Virus record (IMG/VR): IMGVR_UViG_3300045988_141143
Source: a virus
DNA: 64,000 nucleotides
Reading direction: 5' to 3' (one strand)
Shown in pieces: positions 3,759-51,193 of the stretch. The stretch's first letter is position 1; every line of letters begins with the position of its first letter. The notes below the pieces were generated by a model. That model had not been told where the DNA came from, made no database searches, and saw nothing but the letters and a program-made list of their open reading frames with translations. The position numbers and the translations under genes were made by a program.

Positions 3759-3869
3759 AGATATATGGGTGAAAGTTTGCATGTTTCGCAAACTTTGCTT
3801 ACCTTTGCAGTGCTATAATGTGACTCGAAGTTTCAAATAGAGAGTCATAATCTAAAATTAAAAGTATGG

Positions 3870-3899
3870 ATCCCTGCTATTCGTGAGAATGGCAGGGAT
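3870..3899. terminator. 13-bp stem hairpin with GUGA tetraloop between convergent genes (possible bidirectional terminator)
   Basis: atccctgctattc gtga gaatggcagggat, with 12 Watson-Crick pairs plus 1 G-U. T-rich sequence follows on both strands. Confidence 0.5.
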
Positions 3900-3994
3900 T
3901 GTTATATGTTTTTTCTTGAAACGACCAAATTTTTTCGTTTCCAATTATTTCCTAAGAAATAAAAGGAAATAAATGGAAACGAGTTCTGCCCCAA

Positions 3995-24287: not shown

Positions 24288-24839
24288 TTACGACTCAATC
24301 TCGGGAGGGTTGCCACCAGGTTTCTGCTCGCCGCCTCCAGTGGTGCCGGAATCGCCCGTGCCGGGAGTTGCTGGAGCATCCGTTGCAGCATCGCCCACTC
24401 GCTTGAACGAGCCGTGCTGTGCGAAGGCGGCGGTGAACTTCTTGGAGAAGTCGATGGCTACGCCTGCGGTGAGGTCCTTTGTGGTGAGGTCGGCGGCGGT
24501 AATCTCTCGGTTCACGTCAACGTCCTCGCCTGCTGCCTTACGTGCTTCGAGCTTCGCCTTGAGCTGGCTCTGAGTGAGCGAACCGCTGACGGTAGGACGT
24601 ACCGTCATGCCCTCGGCAGACACCTGTACCTTGGTGCCCAGTGCCAACAGAAGCGGCAGCTTTTTCTCCAACTGCGTCATCACGGCCATTACGTCCGCTG
24701 CGCCTACTGTAGAGTCCTGCGCCATGTAGTCGCAAAATTCAGGGAATGACATCTGCTGCAAGTCAACGATCTGTGCGCTTGCAACCTTTTCTTTCGTGAA
24801 ATTATTCACACGAACTGCAATTCTTGTTTTGATTGCCAT
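24288..24839 (-). CDS. HU-like (HU_HIG-type) DNA-binding protein with glycine-rich tail
   Basis: N-terminal region typical of Bacteroidota HU-family proteins (AADVMAVMTQLEKKLPLLLALGTKVQV). C-terminal GGGEQKPGGNPPEIES. Confidence 0.55.
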   Translation of the reverse strand: MAIKTRIAVRVNNFTKEKVASAQIVDLQQMSFPEFCDYMAQDSTVGAADVMAVMTQLEKKLPLLLALGTKVQVSAEGMTVRPTVSGSLTQSQLKAKLEARKAAGEDVDVNREITAADLTTKDLTAGVAIDFSKKFTAAFAQHGSFKRVGDAATDAPATPGTGDSGTTGGGEQKPGGNPPEIES

Positions 24840-24900
24840 AGGTTATTTTTTGTTTGGGCGTTAATACTTCCCTCTCTGTTTTTACCCGATTCCACAAAGA

Positions 24901-24957
24901 GGTTTTTTGCAATGTGCCGACACTTTTTATCGAATGTGCCGACACTTTTTGTCAAAT
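24901..24957 (+). repeat. Three AATGTGCCGACAC sites at exact 22-bp spacing (operator-like array)
   Basis: Copies start at 24901, 24923 and 24945. They lie between the promoter box (24985-24992) and the HU-like start codon (24839). Confidence 0.85.
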
Positions 24958-24984
24958 GTGCCGACACATTGCTTTTTTCGACTA

Positions 24985-24992
24985 CAAATGTA
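24985..24992 (-). promoter_or_regulatory. Candidate -7 promoter box TACATTTG upstream of the HU-like gene
   Basis: TAnnTTTG match inside the shared block TGCTTTTTTCGACTACAAATGTA. Confidence 0.5.
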
Positions 24993-25024
24993 GGGAGAAA
25001 ATTTTGAGCGGTGCGGACATAAAT

Positions 25025-25795
25025 TCAGAACAGCGTGAGCTGTGCTTGCTCCAACTTGATGCGCTTGCAAGCCTTGTCGTAATACTCCTTGTTGAGCTCA
25101 AAGCCGATGAAGTTGCGCTTCTCTTTTATACAAGCAATGGCGGTGGTGCCGCTGCCCATGCAGTTGTCTAATATGGTGTCGCCCTCGTTGGAGTAAGTAC
25201 GGATGAGGTACTGGATGAGAGCGACAGGCTTTTGAGTGGGGTGGAAGCTGTTGTGAATATCCCTCTGAAATAAGACAATATCGGTTGGATATTTTTCGTC
25301 GGTTATCATATCCTTCACTTTGCCATAATTTCCGTAACATCTGTTGGTTTGCTCTTTCTCTTGCTTTCCTCTGCTGTGATTGCGTTCATGTGGAAGACAT
25401 TTGCGCATTTGTGGATGATAGGTTGGCTGTCCGTCGTAGAAAACGGAAATCATCTCCGTTTGCTTTAGAGGCATCTTCTTTGTGTTCAAAAAGCCAGTTG
25501 TACGGCATTTATCCCACGTGATATTATAGCGCCACATCTTTTCATTGCTCATCATCAGTTTTGCCGTGAACATACCCTGTCCGAACAATATTATAGCCGC
25601 ATTGGGCTTACTGATACGAAGATATTGCTTCCATAAAGAATCAAGTGGAATAATACTATCCCATCCTCCTCCTTCGCTCTGCTTATTGAGGACACCATAC
25701 GGCAAATCGCACACAATGCAATCCACGCTTCCGTCTGGAATCCTTTTCATTCCTTCGAGGCAGTCTTCATTATATATTTTGTTCAGTTCTATCAT
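25025..25795 (-). CDS. DNA methyltransferase, beta-class N6-adenine/N4-cytosine type
   Basis: Motif IV-like CDLPYG near the N-terminus. The AdoMet motif DNCMGSGTTAIAC near the C-terminus gives the beta-class order. Confidence 0.8.
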   Translation of the reverse strand: MIELNKIYNEDCLEGMKRIPDGSVDCIVCDLPYGVLNKQSEGGGWDSIIPLDSLWKQYLRISKPNAAIILFGQGMFTAKLMMSNEKMWRYNITWDKCRTTGFLNTKKMPLKQTEMISVFYDGQPTYHPQMRKCLPHERNHSRGKQEKEQTNRCYGNYGKVKDMITDEKYPTDIVLFQRDIHNSFHPTQKPVALIQYLIRTYSNEGDTILDNCMGSGTTAIACIKEKRNFIGFELNKEYYDKACKRIKLEQAQLTLF

Positions 25796-25802
25796 TGTCT
25801 TT

Positions 25803-26837
25803 TTACTTTTTCCTTATCTTTTCCATTTCCTCATTCTCCACCGTCAGGCGTTCCAGGTGCTCCAGCACGAGGGAATAGCTTTGGTTGTTCACCTGGTCCT
25901 CCGTCAGTCCGGCATACTTCTGCATGGTGGCGGTGGTGGCAGTGTAAATCTCCAAGGGCGTGGTGGGCTTCTGCGACTTGAGGGGCTGCACCTTGAACAC
26001 ATGACGATAACGATGAGCGAGGGTGTGCATCACGCCCGTCCACCAAAAGAGTATCACCTGCCATGCCGTTTCGGGAAAATCGCGGAAATAGGACTGGTTC
26101 GTCTCCCACTGGTTCAACTCGTAGTGGAAGTCGTGCTTCACCATGCCCGTGTTACTGTCCACATAGTCGGTCGTGCCGTTGAAGATGGTGGCGAGAAACA
26201 TCGTCCGGGCAGAACTCACGTTCTCCATCTGCCGCTGCATCTGCTCGTCGGTGAAAGTGCCGCGCTGCTGCATCTTCAAGAGGCTGTTGCTAAGTCGGGT
26301 GTAGGTCTGCATCATGTCGGAGGCGAAGCGATACTGCGCCCACGAGAATCCGTCGAGGTCGTTGGCAGGACCGCTGAACACCTTCTTGCGTCGCCACCAC
26401 GCGCGGCGTCGCCGGATGACAGGGTAGGGAAAACGGGTGAGGAAAGCACCGTTCTCGTTATCAAGCCAGTCGAGCAAGCCTGCTCCCTGAGCGATATACT
26501 CTGCCGACTTTCGGGCGTCGGTCTTTGCCTTGGGCGTCAGCCAATAGTTGATTTGCCACAGATACAGCGGAAAGGTGCCGCTGTCCTCGTCGTCCTGCAT
26601 ACGGCAGAGGTAATACTGCTCGCTGAGGTCGAGGCGAGTGTCGGGCGCTGCCACTATCTCCAAGCCCGACAGGGCAAAGAAGATCGCCACCTTCACATTG
26701 CGCATGTCGAAGGGGTGGTATCTGTCCTGCCGTTCCACCTGCTCACGTATCACGTCGGCTATCAGCTCCAACTGTTTCGTAGAGCAGAGGTTCCAGTGGC
26801 GGGGAAGATGTAAGTCTATTTTTTTTGGATTGTTCAT
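25803..26837 (-). CDS. Hypothetical protein (344 aa)
   Basis: Long ORF with an ATG start. The opposite-strand 422-aa ORF has aberrant composition. Confidence 0.5.
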   Translation of the reverse strand: MNNPKKIDLHLPRHWNLCSTKQLELIADVIREQVERQDRYHPFDMRNVKVAIFFALSGLEIVAAPDTRLDLSEQYYLCRMQDDEDSGTFPLYLWQINYWLTPKAKTDARKSAEYIAQGAGLLDWLDNENGAFLTRFPYPVIRRRRAWWRRKKVFSGPANDLDGFSWAQYRFASDMMQTYTRLSNSLLKMQQRGTFTDEQMQRQMENVSSARTMFLATIFNGTTDYVDSNTGMVKHDFHYELNQWETNQSYFRDFPETAWQVILFWWTGVMHTLAHRYRHVFKVQPLKSQKPTTPLEIYTATTATMQKYAGLTEDQVNNQSYSLVLEHLERLTVENEEMEKIRKK

Positions 26838-26859
26838 TTTTACAGAATCCTAAGTTTTT

Positions 26860-26976
26860 ATCCCAAAAATGCCAAAATTGGATTATTTTAGTCCAGAAAA
26901 ATCCAAAAATGGACGAATTTAATCCCAAAAATCCAAAAGCTGGACCAGATTTATCCAGAAAAATCCAAAAATGGAT
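26860..26976. repeat. Four 24-bp imperfect palindromes at exact 31-bp periodicity
   Basis: Units start at 26860, 26891, 26922 and 26953: ATCCCAAAAATGCCAAAATTGGAT / GTCCAGAAAAATCCAAAAATGGAC / ATCCCAAAAATCCAAAAGCTGGAC / ATCCAGAAAAATCCAAAAATGGAT. Spacers are 7 bp. Confidence 0.9.
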
Positions 26977-26993
26977 GGGAAAGTTATCAAAAA

Positions 26994-27548
26994 CTACCAG
27001 GTGATTTCCATTCCTCGGTTGTCGACGAGCGAGCCGTATCGGATGCCGTCGAGTCGACGAAGCCATCCGTCGAGGAACCGCCTCTGCGAAGGTTTGCTCT
27101 TCACCAACCGCTCATAGTACAACTTGCGGCGAGCCTTGAGGCGCGAGAAGAAAGTTTCGGGGTTCTGTCGGTTCAGGGCGGCGAGGGTGTTCTTGCCCAT
27201 GATGCCGTCGGCTTTCACACCCAGTAAGGCTTGGGTGAGGGTGACGGCAGGCGTACCGCTGATCCACAGCCAGTCCACAAGTAGGTTGGCGATGCTCTGG
27301 TCTTTGATTTCATCGGCACGGCATCGGCGCCAGTAGCATCGGCGCAGGATTTCCGTAGCATCAGTATCTGAGATAAGTCGGAGGTCGCGCACGTCTATCC
27401 GTCCGTCGCCGTTCTTGTCGTACCCCTGCTGCCGCCATGTGCCGATGGTCACGCCCTTGTTTGTAGCACCGCCACGGTCTTTCGGGTCGTTCACGAAACC
27501 GCCCTCAAACGAGAGAATGAATTTAGCTAAAGGTTCAATCTTTACCAT
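26994..27548 (-). CDS. Endolysin, glycoside hydrolase family 108 N-acetylmuramidase with C-terminal peptidoglycan-binding region
   Basis: N-terminal FEGGFVNDPKDRGGATNKGVT matches the GH108 signature EGGYVNxPxDxGGxTxxGIT. The rest has the typical layout. Confidence 0.8.
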   Translation of the reverse strand: MVKIEPLAKFILSFEGGFVNDPKDRGGATNKGVTIGTWRQQGYDKNGDGRIDVRDLRLISDTDATEILRRCYWRRCRADEIKDQSIANLLVDWLWISGTPAVTLTQALLGVKADGIMGKNTLAALNRQNPETFFSRLKARRKLYYERLVKSKPSQRRFLDGWLRRLDGIRYGSLVDNRGMEITW

Positions 27549-27847
27549 AGTTTATCGTTTTCTTGTTCTGTTATGTATAAATGTAGGGCAAAGATACAAA
27601 AAAGTCATCCATCGTGCGGGACAAAAATATCCCAGATACTTTGCATGGCAGACTGCGCACCGTGGTCGGCGCAGCCGGAAAACAATGGAAGCCGCAATGC
27701 TGCACTCTTCGTGGAGCAAAGCGGCTTCTGAAACGAAATATTATCCTGAAAAGGAAAGATTACCATTTTGCTGACGCCAGCAAAATGATATTCGGCTCTT
27801 TTTACCTTTTTACTTTTTTGTCTTAGAAATCAGCAAGAAAGCTCTTT

Positions 27848-28375
27848 TTACCTTTTTACCTTTTTACTTTTCAAACATGGCCTCATGTATTCCCATATTT
27901 TCGTACAGTCGAGTACATCTGTGTCCTTCCAGTCGGCATCACAGAAGTAGAACAAGTATGCGGCCTTGATAATCTCCTCTTCGCTCATCTCGGCGCAGAG
28001 GTCAGCATACATGGCATTGAAGGCTACATACTTGTCCCAACAATTCACCTTGCTTGGGAAGTCGAAGTCCTTGGTGGCTTGCTCAATCTCCGATTTAGTC
28101 CAGTGAGCGCCCCTGCCCATAGGCACACCCTCATCGTCCAACTTGCTGTAGAGAAGTCGGTCGACATCATGATGGGCAAACATCTCGCTGTAGTGGCGGT
28201 CGTAGAGCACGGCATGCTGGTGACGGATAATCTTCCAGTAAAGTTCAGGATTCTCATTCTCCACCTTCATCAGGTCGCACGACAACTGCTCCAAGGCAGC
28301 ATTGAGTTTTTTGTCTGTCATCTGTCCGTCAACACGGGCCTGGTTGATTAATTGATTGTACTTCATGATTTTCAT
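27848..28375 (-). CDS. Hypothetical protein (175 aa)
   Basis: ORF with an ATG start. Its 3' end (KSKKVKR*) is encoded by a repeated A/T-rich motif. Confidence 0.45.
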   Translation of the reverse strand: MKIMKYNQLINQARVDGQMTDKKLNAALEQLSCDLMKVENENPELYWKIIRHQHAVLYDRHYSEMFAHHDVDRLLYSKLDDEGVPMGRGAHWTKSEIEQATKDFDFPSKVNCWDKYVAFNAMYADLCAEMSEEEIIKAAYLFYFCDADWKDTDVLDCTKIWEYMRPCLKSKKVKR

Positions 28376-37050: not shown

Positions 37051-37099
37051 CTTAAAAAATGTTTACTTTTTACATTCAGATTGGCAAGAGGGTCTTTTT

Positions 37100-38077
37100 T
37101 TACCTTTTTACTTTTTTACCTTTACTTCTATGGTAGTACAACAGGATAATATCTGTTACTCTAAAGCAATAGTTGGCTGGATCTTTATCCGCTGTGACAG
37201 TACATCCCGCCTCTTTCATCACCTTGTCGAGCCTTTCTGTCTGACTGGGCGATAAAACTTTGACGAGCGATAAAGCATCTATATACGTTCCTCCACTTTC
37301 CGTATGCTTGATAAATTCCTTATCAAAATGGGTTTCATTGTAAAAAAACAGGTTAATGGCTTCTACCATCTGCTCTGCAGTATAAACTGGCAACATGGGT
37401 GTCAGTTTACGAAGCTTCTTGCTGTAGGTAGTCAAACGTTTGCTGAGGTAATCGTCGATACTGTCAGAATATTCAAAATACAGCTGTGCTTTAGGAGTGT
37501 TGTCATCCTTACCAATAACAGACTGATAAAAGCCACGAAGTTGCTGTATCATTTTGATAACACCGTCGAACTGATGGAACTCAGTAGTATTGCCGAAGAC
37601 TGCATACATATTCGACCTGACATCCTTCACGACGCATTCCAGCATGTCGGAAAGAAACGCTACCTTATCAAGGTTGAGTGACAATGTATCTACCTTCTCT
37701 TGCATACCATCCTGAGAATAATCTACAAAATATCTCAGTAGAGTACCGAAGGAGAAAAAGTCGAAGGTAACGTTGGAACGAACATTCGCCAACACAACGG
37801 AGGAATACATCGTATAAGCCAGCTCTAAATCGCGCTTCTGTATCTGCTTCACCAGATTTTGAATTTCCGATGAACCTTGCTTCAACCGACTTGCCACCTT
37901 CGCGAGGTTGTTGCGTCTCGTCATCAACTCATTAAAGTCAGGATCACGAAAGAGTAGGTCAAGCGACTCGGTATATTTCTCCAAAGGTACGTCTTTGAAG
38001 TTAATGGAATAAATGGTAGGCTGCGCATAGATGGCATCTATGCGCTTTGCCTCTTGTTGCTTTTTGCTTTTGCCCAT
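37100..38077 (-). CDS. Hypothetical protein (325 aa)
   Basis: ORF with an ATG start. Its 3' end (SKGKKVKR*) is encoded by the same A/T-rich motif as gene 27848..28375. Confidence 0.45.
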   Translation of the reverse strand: MGKSKKQQEAKRIDAIYAQPTIYSINFKDVPLEKYTESLDLLFRDPDFNELMTRRNNLAKVASRLKQGSSEIQNLVKQIQKRDLELAYTMYSSVVLANVRSNVTFDFFSFGTLLRYFVDYSQDGMQEKVDTLSLNLDKVAFLSDMLECVVKDVRSNMYAVFGNTTEFHQFDGVIKMIQQLRGFYQSVIGKDDNTPKAQLYFEYSDSIDDYLSKRLTTYSKKLRKLTPMLPVYTAEQMVEAINLFFYNETHFDKEFIKHTESGGTYIDALSLVKVLSPSQTERLDKVMKEAGCTVTADKDPANYCFRVTDIILLYYHRSKGKKVKR

Positions 38078-41280: not shown

Positions 41281-41457
41281 ATCTTAGTTATTATACTTAA
41301 TACTTTCACTGCAAAATTAAGAAATAAAACCTAAATAACAAAATATCTGGGGTATTTTCTTGTGTATTTAAGATATATTAAAAGAAATTTAATCGAAATA
41401 TCCCAGTTGTTTCACGTAATGATAGGTATTTTTGAGTGATGAGAAGGAGCATAAAAT

Positions 41458-42150
41458 AAAATGAGACCAAAAAGAAGACTCTGGTCTCATTTCTGTATCA
41501 AAAAGTCCCATTTTTCAAAAATGAACCAAAAAGCAAAAGTCCACTCATCCTATTTTTCTCCTTTTTAGTCCCATGATTGTCTCACGATTATCACCCTGTT
41601 GCCCACTTATTTCTTGCTGTTACTTGCTTACTAATTAGCTTTTTATATTATTTTGGTCTCAAAATGATTATTTTTTTTATAAACTAATATGCGCATAAGA
41701 AATAAAATATTTATCTAAAAGATATAAAATACAGCAAAATTGGCTCAAATCCATCTTATACTTTGCTCCATTTCAATCTTGTAAGTAACTTATTGTCTGA
41801 TGTTTACGGCAAAGCCGTTAATGCTACTAACTTCTAAATTGAGGTTAGGGGCTTTTGATTTTAGGAGAATAAAAAAATTACCCAAAATTCTGATATAGTA
41901 TGCTTAGGATTCATGAAAAATGCGACCAAAACCCTGAAATGAGACCAAAAATGCGAATAAAGTCCCAATAAATGAGACTGTTACACCACTACTCTACCCT
42001 GTCACATTCATATTTGCGAAATGCGACCAGATTATTCGGATTCCATATTGACTATCGTTTTATAGCCGTTCACACCTCACAGCGAAAGAGAAAAACACTG
42101 CGTTTCACAACGAAAAAAGACCACCACGTTTCACAACGGAGCGGTCTCAT
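41458..42150. repeat. Iteron-rich AT-rich non-coding region (origin/operator candidate)
   Basis: Nine copies of ATG(A/C)GACC. Six are direct at 41461, 41521 (degenerate), 41920, 41939, 41972 and 42021. Three are inverted at 41482, 41654 and 42143. Four AAAGTCC(C/A) copies; 12-bp CGTTTCACAACG x2 (42101, 42127). Confidence 0.6.
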
Positions 42151-42199
42151 CAGAAAATACTAACTAATAAATAAGATAAAGAAAATAAAATTCGTAAAC

Positions 42200-50900: not shown

Positions 50901-50976
50901 AAACGAAACAGAAGTATCTGTTTGATGCAAACATAAGTATCTGTTTGATATAAACAATGGGCATCGTTTGAAAAAC

Positions 50977-51145
50977 AACTTGCCGACACTTTTCATCGAA
51001 TGTGCCGACACATTAAAACGAAGGTGTTAGCACTTTTTGCCAAAAGTGTTAGCACATTTTACCAAAAGTGTTAGCACATCAAAAAAACGGAGGTTCAGTT
51101 GATTTCATCAAAAGAGTCGGCTGATTTCGCCAAAAGAGTCGAACC
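50977..51145 (+). repeat. Eight-register 22-bp periodic array: TGCCGACAC x2, GTGTTAGCAC x3, one degenerate unit, AAGAGTCG x2
   Basis: Ten-mer registers at 50980, 51002, 51024, 51046, 51068, 51090, 51112 and 51134. Preceded by AAGTATCTGTTTGAT x2 (50912, 50935). Confidence 0.85.
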
Positions 51146-51193
51146 TCGGCAAATATATAGTGCATAAATGCGCTATAAAAACACTATAAAAAT

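What the first reader, a model, noticed from the sequence alone, without database searches (positions are those of the whole stretch)
26828..26976. Four 24-bp palindromic units at exact 31-bp periodicity upstream of a 344-aa gene
The units are ATCC(C/A)(A/G)AAAAAT(G)CCAAAA(A/T/G)(T/C)TGGA(T/C). They start at 26860, 26891, 26922 and 26953 with 7-bp spacers, giving a 31-bp period of about three helical turns. Each has inverted ends (ATCCA...TGGAT or GTCCA...TGGAC). A fifth, reverse-polarity unit (GGATTGTTCATTTTTACAGAATCC, 26827-26850) overlaps the start codon at 26837. The array fills the whole gap between the endolysin stop and the next gene. Each unit also carries a TTTG on the minus strand, the -33 element of Bacteroidota promoters. 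Same-face repetition of a dimer-type site suggests a cooperative regulator or nucleoprotein filament, for example a late-gene switch.
Basis: seen in the sequence. Interest (0 to 1): 0.52.

Follow-up and report, generated by a model that had tools for sequence, protein, structure and literature searches.

The report
Curved-DNA tandem repeat before a phage gene
The four 31-bp repeats are real, but they are best read as a strain-variable (4-8 copies) stretch of strongly curved DNA made of T-runs spaced one helical turn apart, sitting where a gene's promoter would be in one small group of gut Prevotella-type phages; this is a known kind of sequence feature, not a new system.

Summary
The array exists exactly as described: four 24-bp units at 26860, 26891, 26922 and 26953, with a 31-bp period. 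It lies between the endolysin stop and the 344-aa gene. Only two of the four units have perfect 5-bp inverted ends, and units alternate between two subtypes, giving a 62-bp super-repeat.

I collected the same array from 14 other genomes with 95-99% identical flanking genes. Copy number is 4, 5, 6, 7 (the commonest) or 8. The array is absent from one 97%-identical relative and from every homologous phage at 70% identity or less.

Across 34 distinct units, the invariant positions are the T-runs, three A/T-tracts per unit about 10.3 bp apart. The "palindromic" ends are less conserved.

The array is the most strongly curved segment predicted in the 64-kb window, about 72° per unit. Its point-substitution diversity is about four-fold lower than at neighbouring third-codon positions, so it appears constrained.

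It is not a structured RNA, coding sequence, CRISPR array, or a recognisable origin or centromere.

Most likely it is a clade-specific, copy-number-variable curved-DNA element acting as an upstream or architectural promoter region for the 344-aa / methyltransferase / HU-like cassette. A cooperative regulator array is not excluded and not supported beyond geometry. Interest is modest.

The parts
26857..26976 (-). Tandem array: 4 units of 24 bp plus 7-bp spacers, period 31 bp (62-bp super-repeat of alternating type A and type B units). Holds 11-12 phased A/T-tracts.
26953..26976 (-). Unit 1 on the gene strand, type A: ATCCATTTTTGGATTTTTCTGGAT. Inverted ends 5/5.
26922..26945 (-). Unit 2 on the gene strand, type B: GTCCAGCTTTTGGATTTTTGGGAT. 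Inverted ends 3/5.
26891..26914 (-). Unit 3 on the gene strand, type A: GTCCATTTTTGGATTTTTCTGGAC. Inverted ends 5/5.
26860..26883 (-). Unit 4 on the gene strand, type B and promoter-proximal: ATCCAATTTTGGCATTTTTGGGAT. Inverted ends 4/5. Together with the trailer it is the best conserved block across the 15 genomes.
26864..26871 (-). Near-consensus -7 box CATTTTTG (TAnnTTTG with C in place of T at position 1). It ends 26 nt upstream of the ATG. This is the candidate promoter element and is inferred only.
   Evidence: geometry compared with relatives' exact boxes
26838..26859 (-). Trailer AAAAACTTAGGATTCTGTAAAA between the last unit and the ATG; putative 5' leader. Nearly invariant in the 15 genomes.
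26827..26850 (-). Fifth, opposite-polarity element GGATT-N14-AATCC spanning the start codon. It belongs to the same clade-specific cassette, because L005 differs from the endolysin stop codon through codon 4.
26977..26993 (-). 17-nt leader TTTTTGATAACTTTCCC between the endolysin stop and the first unit.
26994..27548 (-). Upstream gene: endolysin (GH108 plus PG_binding_3). Canonical -7 boxes lie at 27589-27596 and 27622-27629, and a terminator-like hairpin lies at 27761-27790 upstream of them.
25803..26837 (-). Downstream gene: 344-aa conserved phage protein of unknown function. No Pfam or PHROG family. The AF2 model is confident, with no PDB fold match.
25025..25795 (-). N6/N4 DNA methyltransferase, 7 nt downstream of the 344-aa gene and probably in the same transcription unit. 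It is replaced by a D12-class methyltransferase in L003 and L004.
24288..24839 (-). HU-HIG (HU-like) DNA-binding protein with its own promoter and operators. Candidate binder of curved DNA; speculative.

Best explanation
The array is a clade-specific minisatellite with variable copy number, and its conserved feature is a set of phased T-runs. Each 31-bp unit carries three A/T-tracts about 10.3 bp apart, so every tract faces the same side of the helix and the DNA is intrinsically and strongly curved. The model predicts roughly 70-80° per unit: half a circle for the 4 units here, more than a full turn for the commonest 7-unit form. Copies are gained and lost in register by unequal recombination or slippage between units of the same subtype.

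The array replaced a short operon spacer between the endolysin gene and the 344-aa gene. It lies exactly where more distant relatives carry that gene's own sigma-A promoter.

Inferred function: it acts as an upstream curved-DNA or architectural element, UP-element-like or a platform for an HU-type nucleoid protein. It would act on a weak internal promoter whose -7 element is the last unit's CATTTTTG, 26 nt from the ATG. That promoter would raise or tune expression of the 344-aa gene and the methyltransferase behind it.

Shown: the repeat, its phasing, its predicted curvature, its copy-number polymorphism, its restricted distribution and its reduced substitution diversity. Inferred: promoter activity and protein binding.
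For: Fifteen genomes carry 4, 5, 6, 7 or 8 units. Hybrid units mark in-register deletions: L003 equals the 7-unit form minus about 64 bp, joined inside two type-B units, and L078 unit 3 is a B/A hybrid.

T-run columns carry 2.0 bits and the unit ends carry 0.7-1.5 bits over 34 distinct units.

The wedge-model curvature puts the array first in the whole 64-kb window at three spans: 72° over 31 bp, 123° over 62 bp and 170° over 105 bp. The other peaks fall on intergenic promoter regions.

A parameter-free test of tract phasing also ranks the array first: 11 tracts in 120 bp, best period 10.3 bp. All 15 arrays are predicted curved at 119-139° per 62 bp, with end-to-end/contour ratios of 0.18-0.53 against a window mean of 0.96. 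Upstream regions of relatives without the array reach 74° at most.

Among eight 7-unit genomes, array diversity (pi) is 0.0148. Third-codon positions of the adjacent gene give 0.063 overall and 0.056 in the first 150 nt.

In the relatives at about 60-63% identity, roughly half of all loci fetched, the homologous gene has an exact TAnnTTTG box starting about 30 nt before the ATG. Here a near-box starts at -34.

The -7 consensus and the typical 23-nt 5' UTR in Bacteroides come from PMC7366714.
Against: There is no exact TAnnTTTG in the array and no TTTG at the canonical 19-21-nt spacing upstream of the near-box.

Relatives at 54-70% identity that keep the endolysin directly upstream, and L005, have no promoter at this junction. 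The 344-aa gene can therefore be expressed by read-through from the endolysin promoter, and an internal promoter is not required.

The curvature is a model prediction made with wedge angles I recalled from memory, although the parameter-free phasing test agrees with it.

Low diversity could partly reflect how the genomes were chosen: they share an array structure, and 8 were found with a 23-nt exact pattern from the last unit.

Two compensated end-pairs, GTACA/TGTAC and GTCCG/CGGAC, hint at some selection on the inverted ends. Pure curvature does not explain that.
Confidence: 0.5

Rival explanations
1. Cooperative operator array. A phage- or host-encoded dimeric DNA-binding protein recognises the inverted ends (R)TCCA-N14-TGGA(Y) of each unit, or of every second, type-A unit. 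It would use the T-runs by indirect readout and polymerise on one face of the helix into a nucleoprotein loop that switches the downstream cassette, as phi29 p4/p6 does.
For: Units lie on the same face of the helix. Type-A units have 4-5 of 5 complementary end positions. Two end-pairs changed on both sides and stayed complementary: GTACA/TGTAC in 10 genomes and GTCCG/CGGAC in L078. The array is under constraint. An HU-HIG gene is always present two genes downstream, even when the cassette is swapped. Phi29 p4 sites likewise combine inverted ends with three A-tracts (PMC3100819).
Against: The ends are less conserved than the T-runs. Of 93 copies, 42 have 3 or fewer of 5 complementary positions, and the ends are mostly lost in L080. 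With dozens of substitutions among the units, one or two chance compensations are expected (my estimate). The motif is unique to this locus, whereas this phage's operator-like 22-bp repeats recur at two loci. No candidate regulator was found, and the neighbouring 344-aa protein has no DNA-binding fold match. The array is absent from L005 and from more distant relatives that keep the same genes.
Confidence: 0.2
2. Functionally neutral slippage product. A T-rich spacer inside the endolysin / 344-aa operon expanded by replication slippage or unequal recombination and is simply tolerated. On this view the curvature is a by-product of duplicating a 10-bp T-run motif.
For: The array is restricted to one clade of at least 95% identity and is absent in L005 (97% identity) and in all other relatives. 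Copy number varies from 4 to 8, with hybrid units. There is no canonical promoter, no RNA structure and no other copies.
Against: Point diversity in the array (0.0148) is about 4-fold lower than at adjacent third-codon positions (0.056-0.063) and lower than the all-site diversity of the flanking genes. A 37-nt block, the promoter-proximal unit plus trailer, is invariant in 14 of 15 genomes. T-run phasing survives in the most diverged array, L080, even though many other positions changed.
Confidence: 0.2
3. Iteron-type replication origin, centromere-like partition site or packaging site. The repeats would bind an initiator, a ParB/ParR-type protein or a small terminase, like the four curved dyad-symmetric iterons of lambda ori or the sopC/parC arrays.
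For: There are four to eight partly dyad-symmetric direct repeats with static curvature and an adjacent A/T-rich stretch around the start codon. Tolerance of variable copy number is typical of iterons and centromeres (established knowledge).
Against: The array lies in a late structural and lysis gene block, with all genes co-directional. The neighbouring protein has no Rep, ParA or ParB family hit or fold match, and I saw no Walker A motif on reading its sequence. The array is missing from L005 and from all more distant relatives, which an essential origin would not be. DnaA-box-like 9-mers reach only 8/9 matches, at a frequency expected by chance (read by eye; my calculation gives about 14 such matches per 64 kb). 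The putative large terminase gene is 27 kb away. The divergent region at 50.9-51.2 kb, with four families of 22-23-bp repeats, is a better candidate for a control or origin region.
Confidence: 0.06

Closest known systems
Phased A-tract intrinsically curved DNA upstream of bacterial and phage promoters (UP-element-like curved activating sequences)
   Same: Runs of 4-5 A or T are repeated once per helical turn over more than 100 bp, immediately upstream of a gene start. The segment is the top predicted bend in the region, and other predicted bends in this window also fall on promoter regions. A-tract periodicity is linked to curvature and nucleoid proteins in prokaryotes (PMC3940949 abstract).
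   Different: Here the tracts are organised as a 31/62-bp minisatellite whose copy number differs between strains (4-8). There is no exact host -7 box, and promoter activity has not been shown.
Phage phi29 p4/p6 early-to-late switch region
   Same: About 120 bp holds four sites, each with inverted ends and three A-tracts, and is remodelled into a nucleoprotein hairpin by a dimeric regulator plus a histone-like protein (PMC3100819). The present units also have inverted ends plus three A/T-tracts, and the phage encodes an HU-like protein.
   Different: No p4 or p6 homologue was identified. To my knowledge the phi29 sites are not a tandem repeat and their copy number does not vary. Here the unit ends are poorly conserved. 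Binding is untested.
Lambda ori iterons (four dyad-symmetric repeats with sequence-directed curvature) and plasmid iterons
   Same: Both have four partly palindromic direct repeats, phased A/T spacers and static curvature (lambda side from my own knowledge).
   Different: This array is not in or next to a recognisable initiator gene. It sits in the late region. It is dispensable in close relatives.
Plasmid and phage centromere arrays (F sopC 43-bp repeats; R1 parC; pSK41 parC)
   Same: Both are tandem repeats that contain short inverted repeats and tolerate changes in copy number (my own knowledge).
   Different: No ParA, ParB or ParR-like gene is adjacent. The array is a single clade-specific locus inside an operon.
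Bacterial VNTR / minisatellite (contingency-type) loci in promoter regions
   Same: Head-to-tail repeats whose copy number differs between otherwise near-identical genomes, located upstream of a gene.
   Different: The unit length is three helical turns, so a change in copy number keeps the helical phase and does not change promoter spacing. No on/off mechanism is evident.

Membership tests
Tandem repeat / VNTR (minisatellite) | At least 2 head-to-tail copies of a unit, above chance | tested here: met
   TRF finds period 31 x 3.9 copies (score 123) and period 62 x 1.9 copies (score 173). The core motif is enriched: 0 of 100 shuffles reach the observed count.
Tandem repeat / VNTR (minisatellite) | Copy number polymorphic among closely related genomes | tested here: met
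   Fifteen genomes with 95-99% identical flanking genes carry 4, 5, 6, 7 or 8 units, and hybrid units mark the junctions.
Intrinsically curved DNA (phased A-tracts) | A/T-tracts of at least 4 nt repeated in phase with the helix (10-11 bp) over several turns | tested here: met
   There are 11 tracts in 120 bp with a best period of 10.3 bp. This is the strongest phasing in the window.
Intrinsically curved DNA (phased A-tracts) | Predicted curvature is an outlier relative to surrounding DNA | tested here: met
   The array ranks first in 64 kb at spans of 31, 62 and 105 bp (72°, 123° and 170°). Mononucleotide shuffles give a mean of 50° at 105 bp. The wedge parameters were recalled from memory.
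Intrinsically curved DNA (phased A-tracts) | Anomalously slow gel migration, or a bend shown by circular permutation | not testable with these tools
   This needs an experiment.
Bacteroidota sigma-A promoter | -7 box TAnnTTTG | tested here: not met
   There is no exact box between 26838 and 26993. There are five nAnnTTTG near-matches, the last ending 26 nt from the ATG.
Bacteroidota sigma-A promoter | -33 TTTG placed 19-21 nt upstream of the -7 box | tested here: not met
   The combined pattern has no match in the array. TTTG-to-TTTG distances in the array are 10, 21, 31 and 41 nt (read from the sequence).
Bacteroidota sigma-A promoter | Mapped transcription start | not testable with these tools
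   No transcript data are available.
Operator array of a dimeric regulator | Palindromic half-sites conserved across units and across relatives | tested here: inconclusive
   End complementarity is 5/5 in 23 copies, 4/5 in 28 and 3/5 or less in 42, out of 93 copies. Two end-pair types are compensated. The ends carry less information than the T-runs.
Operator array of a dimeric regulator | Cognate DNA-binding protein encoded nearby, or the motif reused at other regulated promoters | tested here: not met
   The motif is unique to this locus. The adjacent 344-aa protein has no DNA-binding family or fold match. The HU-HIG protein is non-specific by family.
Iteron replication origin | Direct repeats adjacent to or inside an initiator gene, conserved among relatives | tested here: not met
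   There is no Rep-like neighbour. The array is absent in L005 and in all relatives at 70% identity or less.
CRISPR array | Repeats of at least 23 nt separated by unique spacers of similar length; Rfam or cas support | tested here: not met
   Spacers are only 6-8 nt. The only Rfam hit, CRISPR-DR17, scores 22.5 bits against a gathering score of 42 (E = 0.11).
Structured non-coding RNA | Fold more stable than shuffled sequence, or a match to a known family | tested here: not met
   The z-score is -0.44 for RNA on the gene strand and -0.93 for DNA on the + strand. No Rfam family matches.

The most novel reading that the evidence does not exclude
The array is a copy-number-tunable architectural scaffold. 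Four to eight in-phase units, each bent about 75°, would wrap a phage HU-HIG-type protein, possibly with an unidentified dimer that reads the TCCA/TGGA ends, into a loop or solenoid. This complex would set the expression level of the 344-aa gene and of a swappable DNA-methyltransferase / HU cassette behind it. Strains could then dial anti-restriction gene expression by gaining or losing 31-bp (three-turn) units without losing helical phase. That would be a phage 'rheostat' VNTR, analogous to but distinct from the phi29 p4/p6 hairpin.
Probability: 0.12. Interest if true: 0.55.

Novelty: new member of a known kind. Interest (0 to 1): 0.3.

Why it matters
If the array works as proposed, it would be a clean natural example of sequence-directed DNA curvature packaged as a minisatellite. 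Copy number changes in three-turn steps, which gives a simple way for gut Bacteroidota phages to tune a gene cassette that includes swappable DNA methyltransferases. It would also provide a compact test piece for studying curvature, HU-like proteins and promoter function in Prevotella and Bacteroides, where upstream promoter architecture is poorly known. If it is only a tolerated slippage product, it remains useful as a strain-typing marker for this phage lineage. In either case it does not define a new class of element.

Tried and rejected
- **Structured RNA or riboswitch:** folding is no better than shuffles and nothing matches in Rfam.
- **CRISPR mini-array:** the only hit is sub-threshold CRISPR-DR17, and the 6-8-nt spacers rule it out.
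- **Coding sequence:** the two overlapping ORFs (59 aa on +, 107 aa on -) are mechanical calls. A 31-nt period and indels of 30-33 nt shift the reading frame.
- **Sigma-70 promoter:** TTGGCA-17-TAGGAT matches 9 of 12 positions, at chance frequency. The host phylum does not use -35/-10 boxes (PMC7366714).
- **Intrinsic terminator:** the site at 26940-26958 has a weak 6-bp stem and occurs at chance frequency. The hairpins inside type-A units (5-bp stem plus U5) are too weak and are not conserved in L080 (my reading).
- **DnaA-box cluster:** the best matches are 8/9 (TCTGGATAA, TTTGGATAA), at a frequency expected by chance (by eye and my calculation).
- **MITE or mobile element:** the motif was found in IMG/VR only at this same locus, with no other copy in the window.
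- **Similarity to annotated phages:** the 3.4-kb query hit only the methyltransferase part in INPHARED.
- **Link to the downstream N6/N4 methyltransferase (phasevarion idea):** array-bearing L003 and L004 carry a different, D12-class methyltransferase, and array-less L005 carries the N6/N4 one.
- **Endolysin-side diversity without alignment:** the result was invalid because of an indel in L088. Only the MAFFT-aligned value is used.
- **Literature searches:** no description of this element was found.
Full report
**Observation**

The sequence between the endolysin stop (26994) and the start codon of the 344-aa ORF (26837, minus strand) contains four 24-bp units. They start at 26860, 26891, 26922 and 26953 and are separated by 7-bp spacers, giving an exact 31-bp period.

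Tandem Repeats Finder reports 26857-26975 with period 31 (3.9 copies, score 123). It also reports period 62 (1.9 copies, 85% matches, score 173). Units therefore alternate between two subtypes.
- Type A, read on the gene strand: RTCCA-TTTT-TGGAT-TTTTC-TGGAY.
- Type B, read on the gene strand: RTCCA-(A/G)(T/C)TTTGG(C)ATTTTTGGGAT.

A 17-nt core of the unit is enriched in the window: 4 matches, 3 of them in the array, against 0.34 expected, and 0 of 100 shuffles reach 4.

The fifth, opposite-polarity element at 26827-26850 across the ATG is present as described.

The word "palindromic" needs correcting. Only two of the four units have perfect 5-bp inverted ends; the other two have 4/5 and 3/5 complementary positions. 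The tighter palindrome ATCCA-N4-TGGAT is no more common in the window than chance.

**Context**

The window is part of a siphovirus-like genome of about 100 kb. Evidence for this:
- A 1983-aa tape-measure protein, a head protease and tail-fibre proteins are present.
- Related contigs are 90-105 kb long.

The host is very probably in the Bacteroidota, likely Prevotella:
- Homologous contigs are binned mostly with Prevotella MAGs from human gut.
- The canonical Bacteroidota -7 box TAnnTTTG sits 31-90 nt upstream of nine minus-strand genes in the window. The consensus is taken from PMC7366714.

The array lies inside a long block of genes that all read on the minus strand. Reading along that strand, the local order is:
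- a DUF7841 gene;
- a strong terminator-like hairpin (27790-27761);
- two canonical -7 boxes (27622, 27589);
- the endolysin gene (GH108 plus PG_binding_3);
- the array;
- the 344-aa gene;
- a 7-nt gap, then an N6/N4 DNA methyltransferase;
- a promoter with three 22-bp operator-like repeats;
- an HU-HIG gene;
- an SPFH-domain gene.

**Distribution in relatives**

I fetched 74 viral loci that encode homologues of the 344-aa protein. The array is present only in L001-L004, whose proteins are 96-99% identical to the window's.
- L005 (97% identical) has an unrelated 51-nt spacer instead. It differs from the array-bearing genomes exactly from the endolysin stop codon through codon 4.
- In the relatives at 54-70% identity that keep the endolysin directly upstream, the gap to the ATG is at most about 40 nt, or the two genes overlap.
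- In the clades at about 60-63% identity, about half of all loci fetched, the gene follows a terminator-like inverted repeat. It has its own exact TAnnTTTG box starting about 30 nt before the ATG.

Two further sources added ten more array-bearing genomes: look-ups of exact protein sequences and one metagenome scan with a 23-nt pattern from the last unit plus trailer. That makes 15 in all.

Copy numbers are:
- 4 units: the window and L078;
- 5 units: L001, L003, L086;
- 6 units: L084;
- 7 units: eight genomes;
- 8 units: L080 (95% identity), which has the most diverged units.

Hybrid units show that copies are lost and gained in register between units of the same subtype. L003 equals the 7-unit form minus about 64 bp, with the join inside two type-B units. 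L078 unit 3 is a B/A hybrid.

A scan of IMG/VR for the unit motif returned only these same contigs. A BLAST of the 3.4-kb region against annotated phages matched only the methyltransferase.

**What is conserved inside the unit**

I aligned the 34 distinct unit-plus-spacer sequences, which represent 93 copies.
- The invariant columns are the two T-runs (2.0 bits).
- The G that follows each T-run and the A-run in the spacer are nearly as well conserved.
- The unit ends carry 0.7-1.5 bits.
- Unit-plus-spacer length is 30-33 nt.

End complementarity over the 93 copies is 5/5 in 23, 4/5 in 28 and 3/5 or less in 42.

Two end-pair types changed on both sides and stayed complementary: GTACA/TGTAC, one orthologous unit in 10 genomes, and GTCCG/CGGAC in L078. 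With dozens of substitutions among the units, I estimate that one or two such events could arise by chance. This is suggestive but not decisive.

The alternative palindromes across the spacers (TGGAY-N6-8-RTCCA) are no better conserved.

**Curvature**

Each 31-bp unit holds three A/T-tracts about 10.3 bp apart.

A parameter-free measure, the vector sum of tract centres over 120-bp windows, ranks the array first in the 64-kb window. It finds 11 tracts with a best period of 10.3 bp.

I also ran a dinucleotide wedge model. I recalled the Bolshoy-type angles from memory, so absolute values are approximate. A phased-A6 control gave 72° per 31 bp and an out-of-phase control gave 2°. The model ranks the array first at every span tested:
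- 72° over 31 bp;
- 123° over 62 bp;
- 170° over 105 bp.

The window means at those spans are 16°, 24° and 32°.

Other predicted peaks coincide with intergenic promoter regions at 41.7, 51.2, 27.59, 23.0 and 24.94 kb.

All 15 arrays are predicted to be strongly curved, at 119-139° per 62 bp. Their end-to-end/contour ratios are 0.18-0.53, against a window mean of 0.96. Upstream regions of homologues without the array reach 74° at most.

**Constraint**

I compared the eight 7-unit genomes.
- Aligned nucleotide diversity in the 252-nt intergenic region is 0.0148.
- All sites of the 344-aa gene give 0.030.
- Third-codon positions of that gene give 0.063 overall and 0.056 in the 150 nt nearest the array.
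- The aligned endolysin 3' part gives 0.024.

A 37-nt block comprising the promoter-proximal unit and trailer is identical in 14 of 15 genomes.

Two caveats apply. The group was defined by having the same array length. Eight genomes were found through an exact 23-nt pattern inside that block.

Even so, the array is not evolving like unconstrained DNA at the level of point substitutions, although its copy number is labile.

**Promoter question**

No exact TAnnTTTG and no -33/-7 pair at canonical spacing lies in the array. There are five near-boxes of the form nAnnTTTG, which follow from the T-run-plus-G design.

The last near-box, CATTTTTG (26864-26871), ends 26 nt from the ATG. This is close to the geometry of the exact boxes in the relatives at about 60-63% identity, where the box ends about 23 nt from the ATG. 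It also fits the modal 23-nt 5' UTR reported for Bacteroides (PMC7366714).

An internal promoter is therefore plausible but unproven. The gene can evidently also be expressed by read-through from the endolysin promoter, since close relatives have no promoter at this junction.

**Alternatives examined**

- **Structured RNA or single-stranded DNA:** folding is not better than shuffles (z -0.44 and -0.93) and no Rfam family matches.
- **CRISPR:** the only hit is sub-threshold, and the spacers are 6-8 nt.
- **Coding sequence:** excluded by the 31-nt period and by the indels.
- **Link to the specific methyltransferase:** excluded. L003 and L004 carry the array with a D12-class methyltransferase and a different HU-HIG protein, while array-less L005 carries the N6/N4 enzyme. 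The functional order 344-aa gene, DNA methyltransferase, HU-like gene is nevertheless kept.

**Contrast with a better operator candidate in the same window**

The 16-bp dyad AATGTGTCGGCACATT occurs three times at 22-bp spacing immediately downstream of the canonical -7 box of the HU-HIG gene. It occurs twice more in the divergent region at 51.0 kb, next to three other families of 22-23-bp repeats.

That pattern has a well-kept dyad and two-turn spacing, and it is reused at two loci. It is what a regulator's operator set is expected to look like. The 31-bp array has none of these properties apart from helical phasing.

**Mechanism and comparison with known elements**

The best-supported reading is a clade-specific minisatellite of phased T-runs. 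It is intrinsically curved DNA that has been inserted at the promoter position of the 344-aa / methyltransferase unit. It probably acts architecturally, either as an upstream curved element for RNA polymerase or as a platform for an HU-type protein.

It works like the classical curved upstream sequences of bacterial and phage promoters. In geometry it also resembles the phi29 p4/p6 switch region, which has four sites, each with inverted ends and three A-tracts (PMC3100819), and the curved iterons of lambda ori (my own knowledge).

It cannot be filed as a member of either of those systems. No cognate protein is identified, the unit ends are weakly conserved, and the array is dispensable in near relatives.

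**Verdict**

The feature is a new example of a known kind of element: curved-DNA tandem repeats, or a promoter-region VNTR.

Interest is modest at 0.3. The copy-number "rheostat" or nucleoprotein-scaffold reading is not excluded. I give it a probability of about 0.12, and it would be moderately interesting if true.

Noticed in passing
window 24911-24968 (minus strand) and 50977-51012 (minus strand): The 16-bp dyad (A/T)ATGTGTCGGCACATT is repeated three times at 22-bp spacing directly downstream of a canonical -7 box (TACATTTG, 24985-24992) and upstream of the HU-HIG gene. The same motif occurs twice more, 26 kb away, in the divergent intergenic region. Six matches are found against 0.5 expected. 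This looks like a genuine shared operator set for a phage repressor or regulator.
   Followed up: partly
window 50906-51141: The divergent control region between minus-strand and plus-strand gene blocks holds three more families of 22-23-bp tandem repeats. These are ATCAAACAGATACTT x2 (50906-50956), GTGCTAACAC-type x3 (51024-51079) and CGACTCTTTTG-type x2 (51100-51141). A predicted curvature peak lies at 51182. This is a candidate regulatory or origin region.
   Followed up: partly
window 41281-42199: A non-coding, AT-rich region of about 900 bp lies between the tape-measure gene and the next gene. It carries repeated GGTC(T/G)CATTT motifs and a GAGACC...GGTCTC hairpin. It has the second strongest A/T-tract phasing and curvature in the window. 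No Rfam family and no tRNA match.
   Followed up: partly
window 27798-27871 and 37097-37123; L020, L022-L026, L028 upstream of the 344-aa homologue: The octamer repeat GTAAAAAG / GGTAAAAAAG (three copies) recurs at several gene boundaries in the window. It also occurs at the homologous junction in other clades, where copies form the arms of long inverted repeats.
   Followed up: no
L017 and L018, about 3850-3985; L019 and L021, about 3880-3990: Other clades carry different short tandem repeats at the same junction upstream of the 344-aa gene. L017 and L018 have ACGTACA(A/G)AAG-type GTAC repeats. L019 and L021 have four GAATGTT repeats facing four AACATTC repeats. The junction seems prone to acquiring repeat elements.
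   Followed up: no
L003/L004 5036-7050 compared with window 24288-25795: The cassette downstream of the 344-aa gene is swapped between near-identical phages. One version has an N6_N4 methyltransferase plus a 183-aa HU-HIG protein. The other has a D12-class N6-adenine methyltransferase (376 aa) plus a different 160-aa HU-HIG protein. This is allelic replacement with function kept.
   Followed up: partly
window 25803-26837 (minus strand): The 344-aa protein belongs to a large, well-conserved family found in gut phages of about 100 kb: 295 hits, with 98 invariant columns among 33 sequences. The AF2 model is confident (pLDDT 85), yet no Pfam, PHROG or PDB fold match was found. The fold and the function are unassigned.
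   Followed up: yes
window 27761-27790 (minus strand): A 13-bp-stem terminator-like hairpin is followed by two canonical -7 boxes (27622, 27589) ahead of the endolysin gene. This marks a transcription-unit boundary just upstream of the finding.
   Followed up: partly
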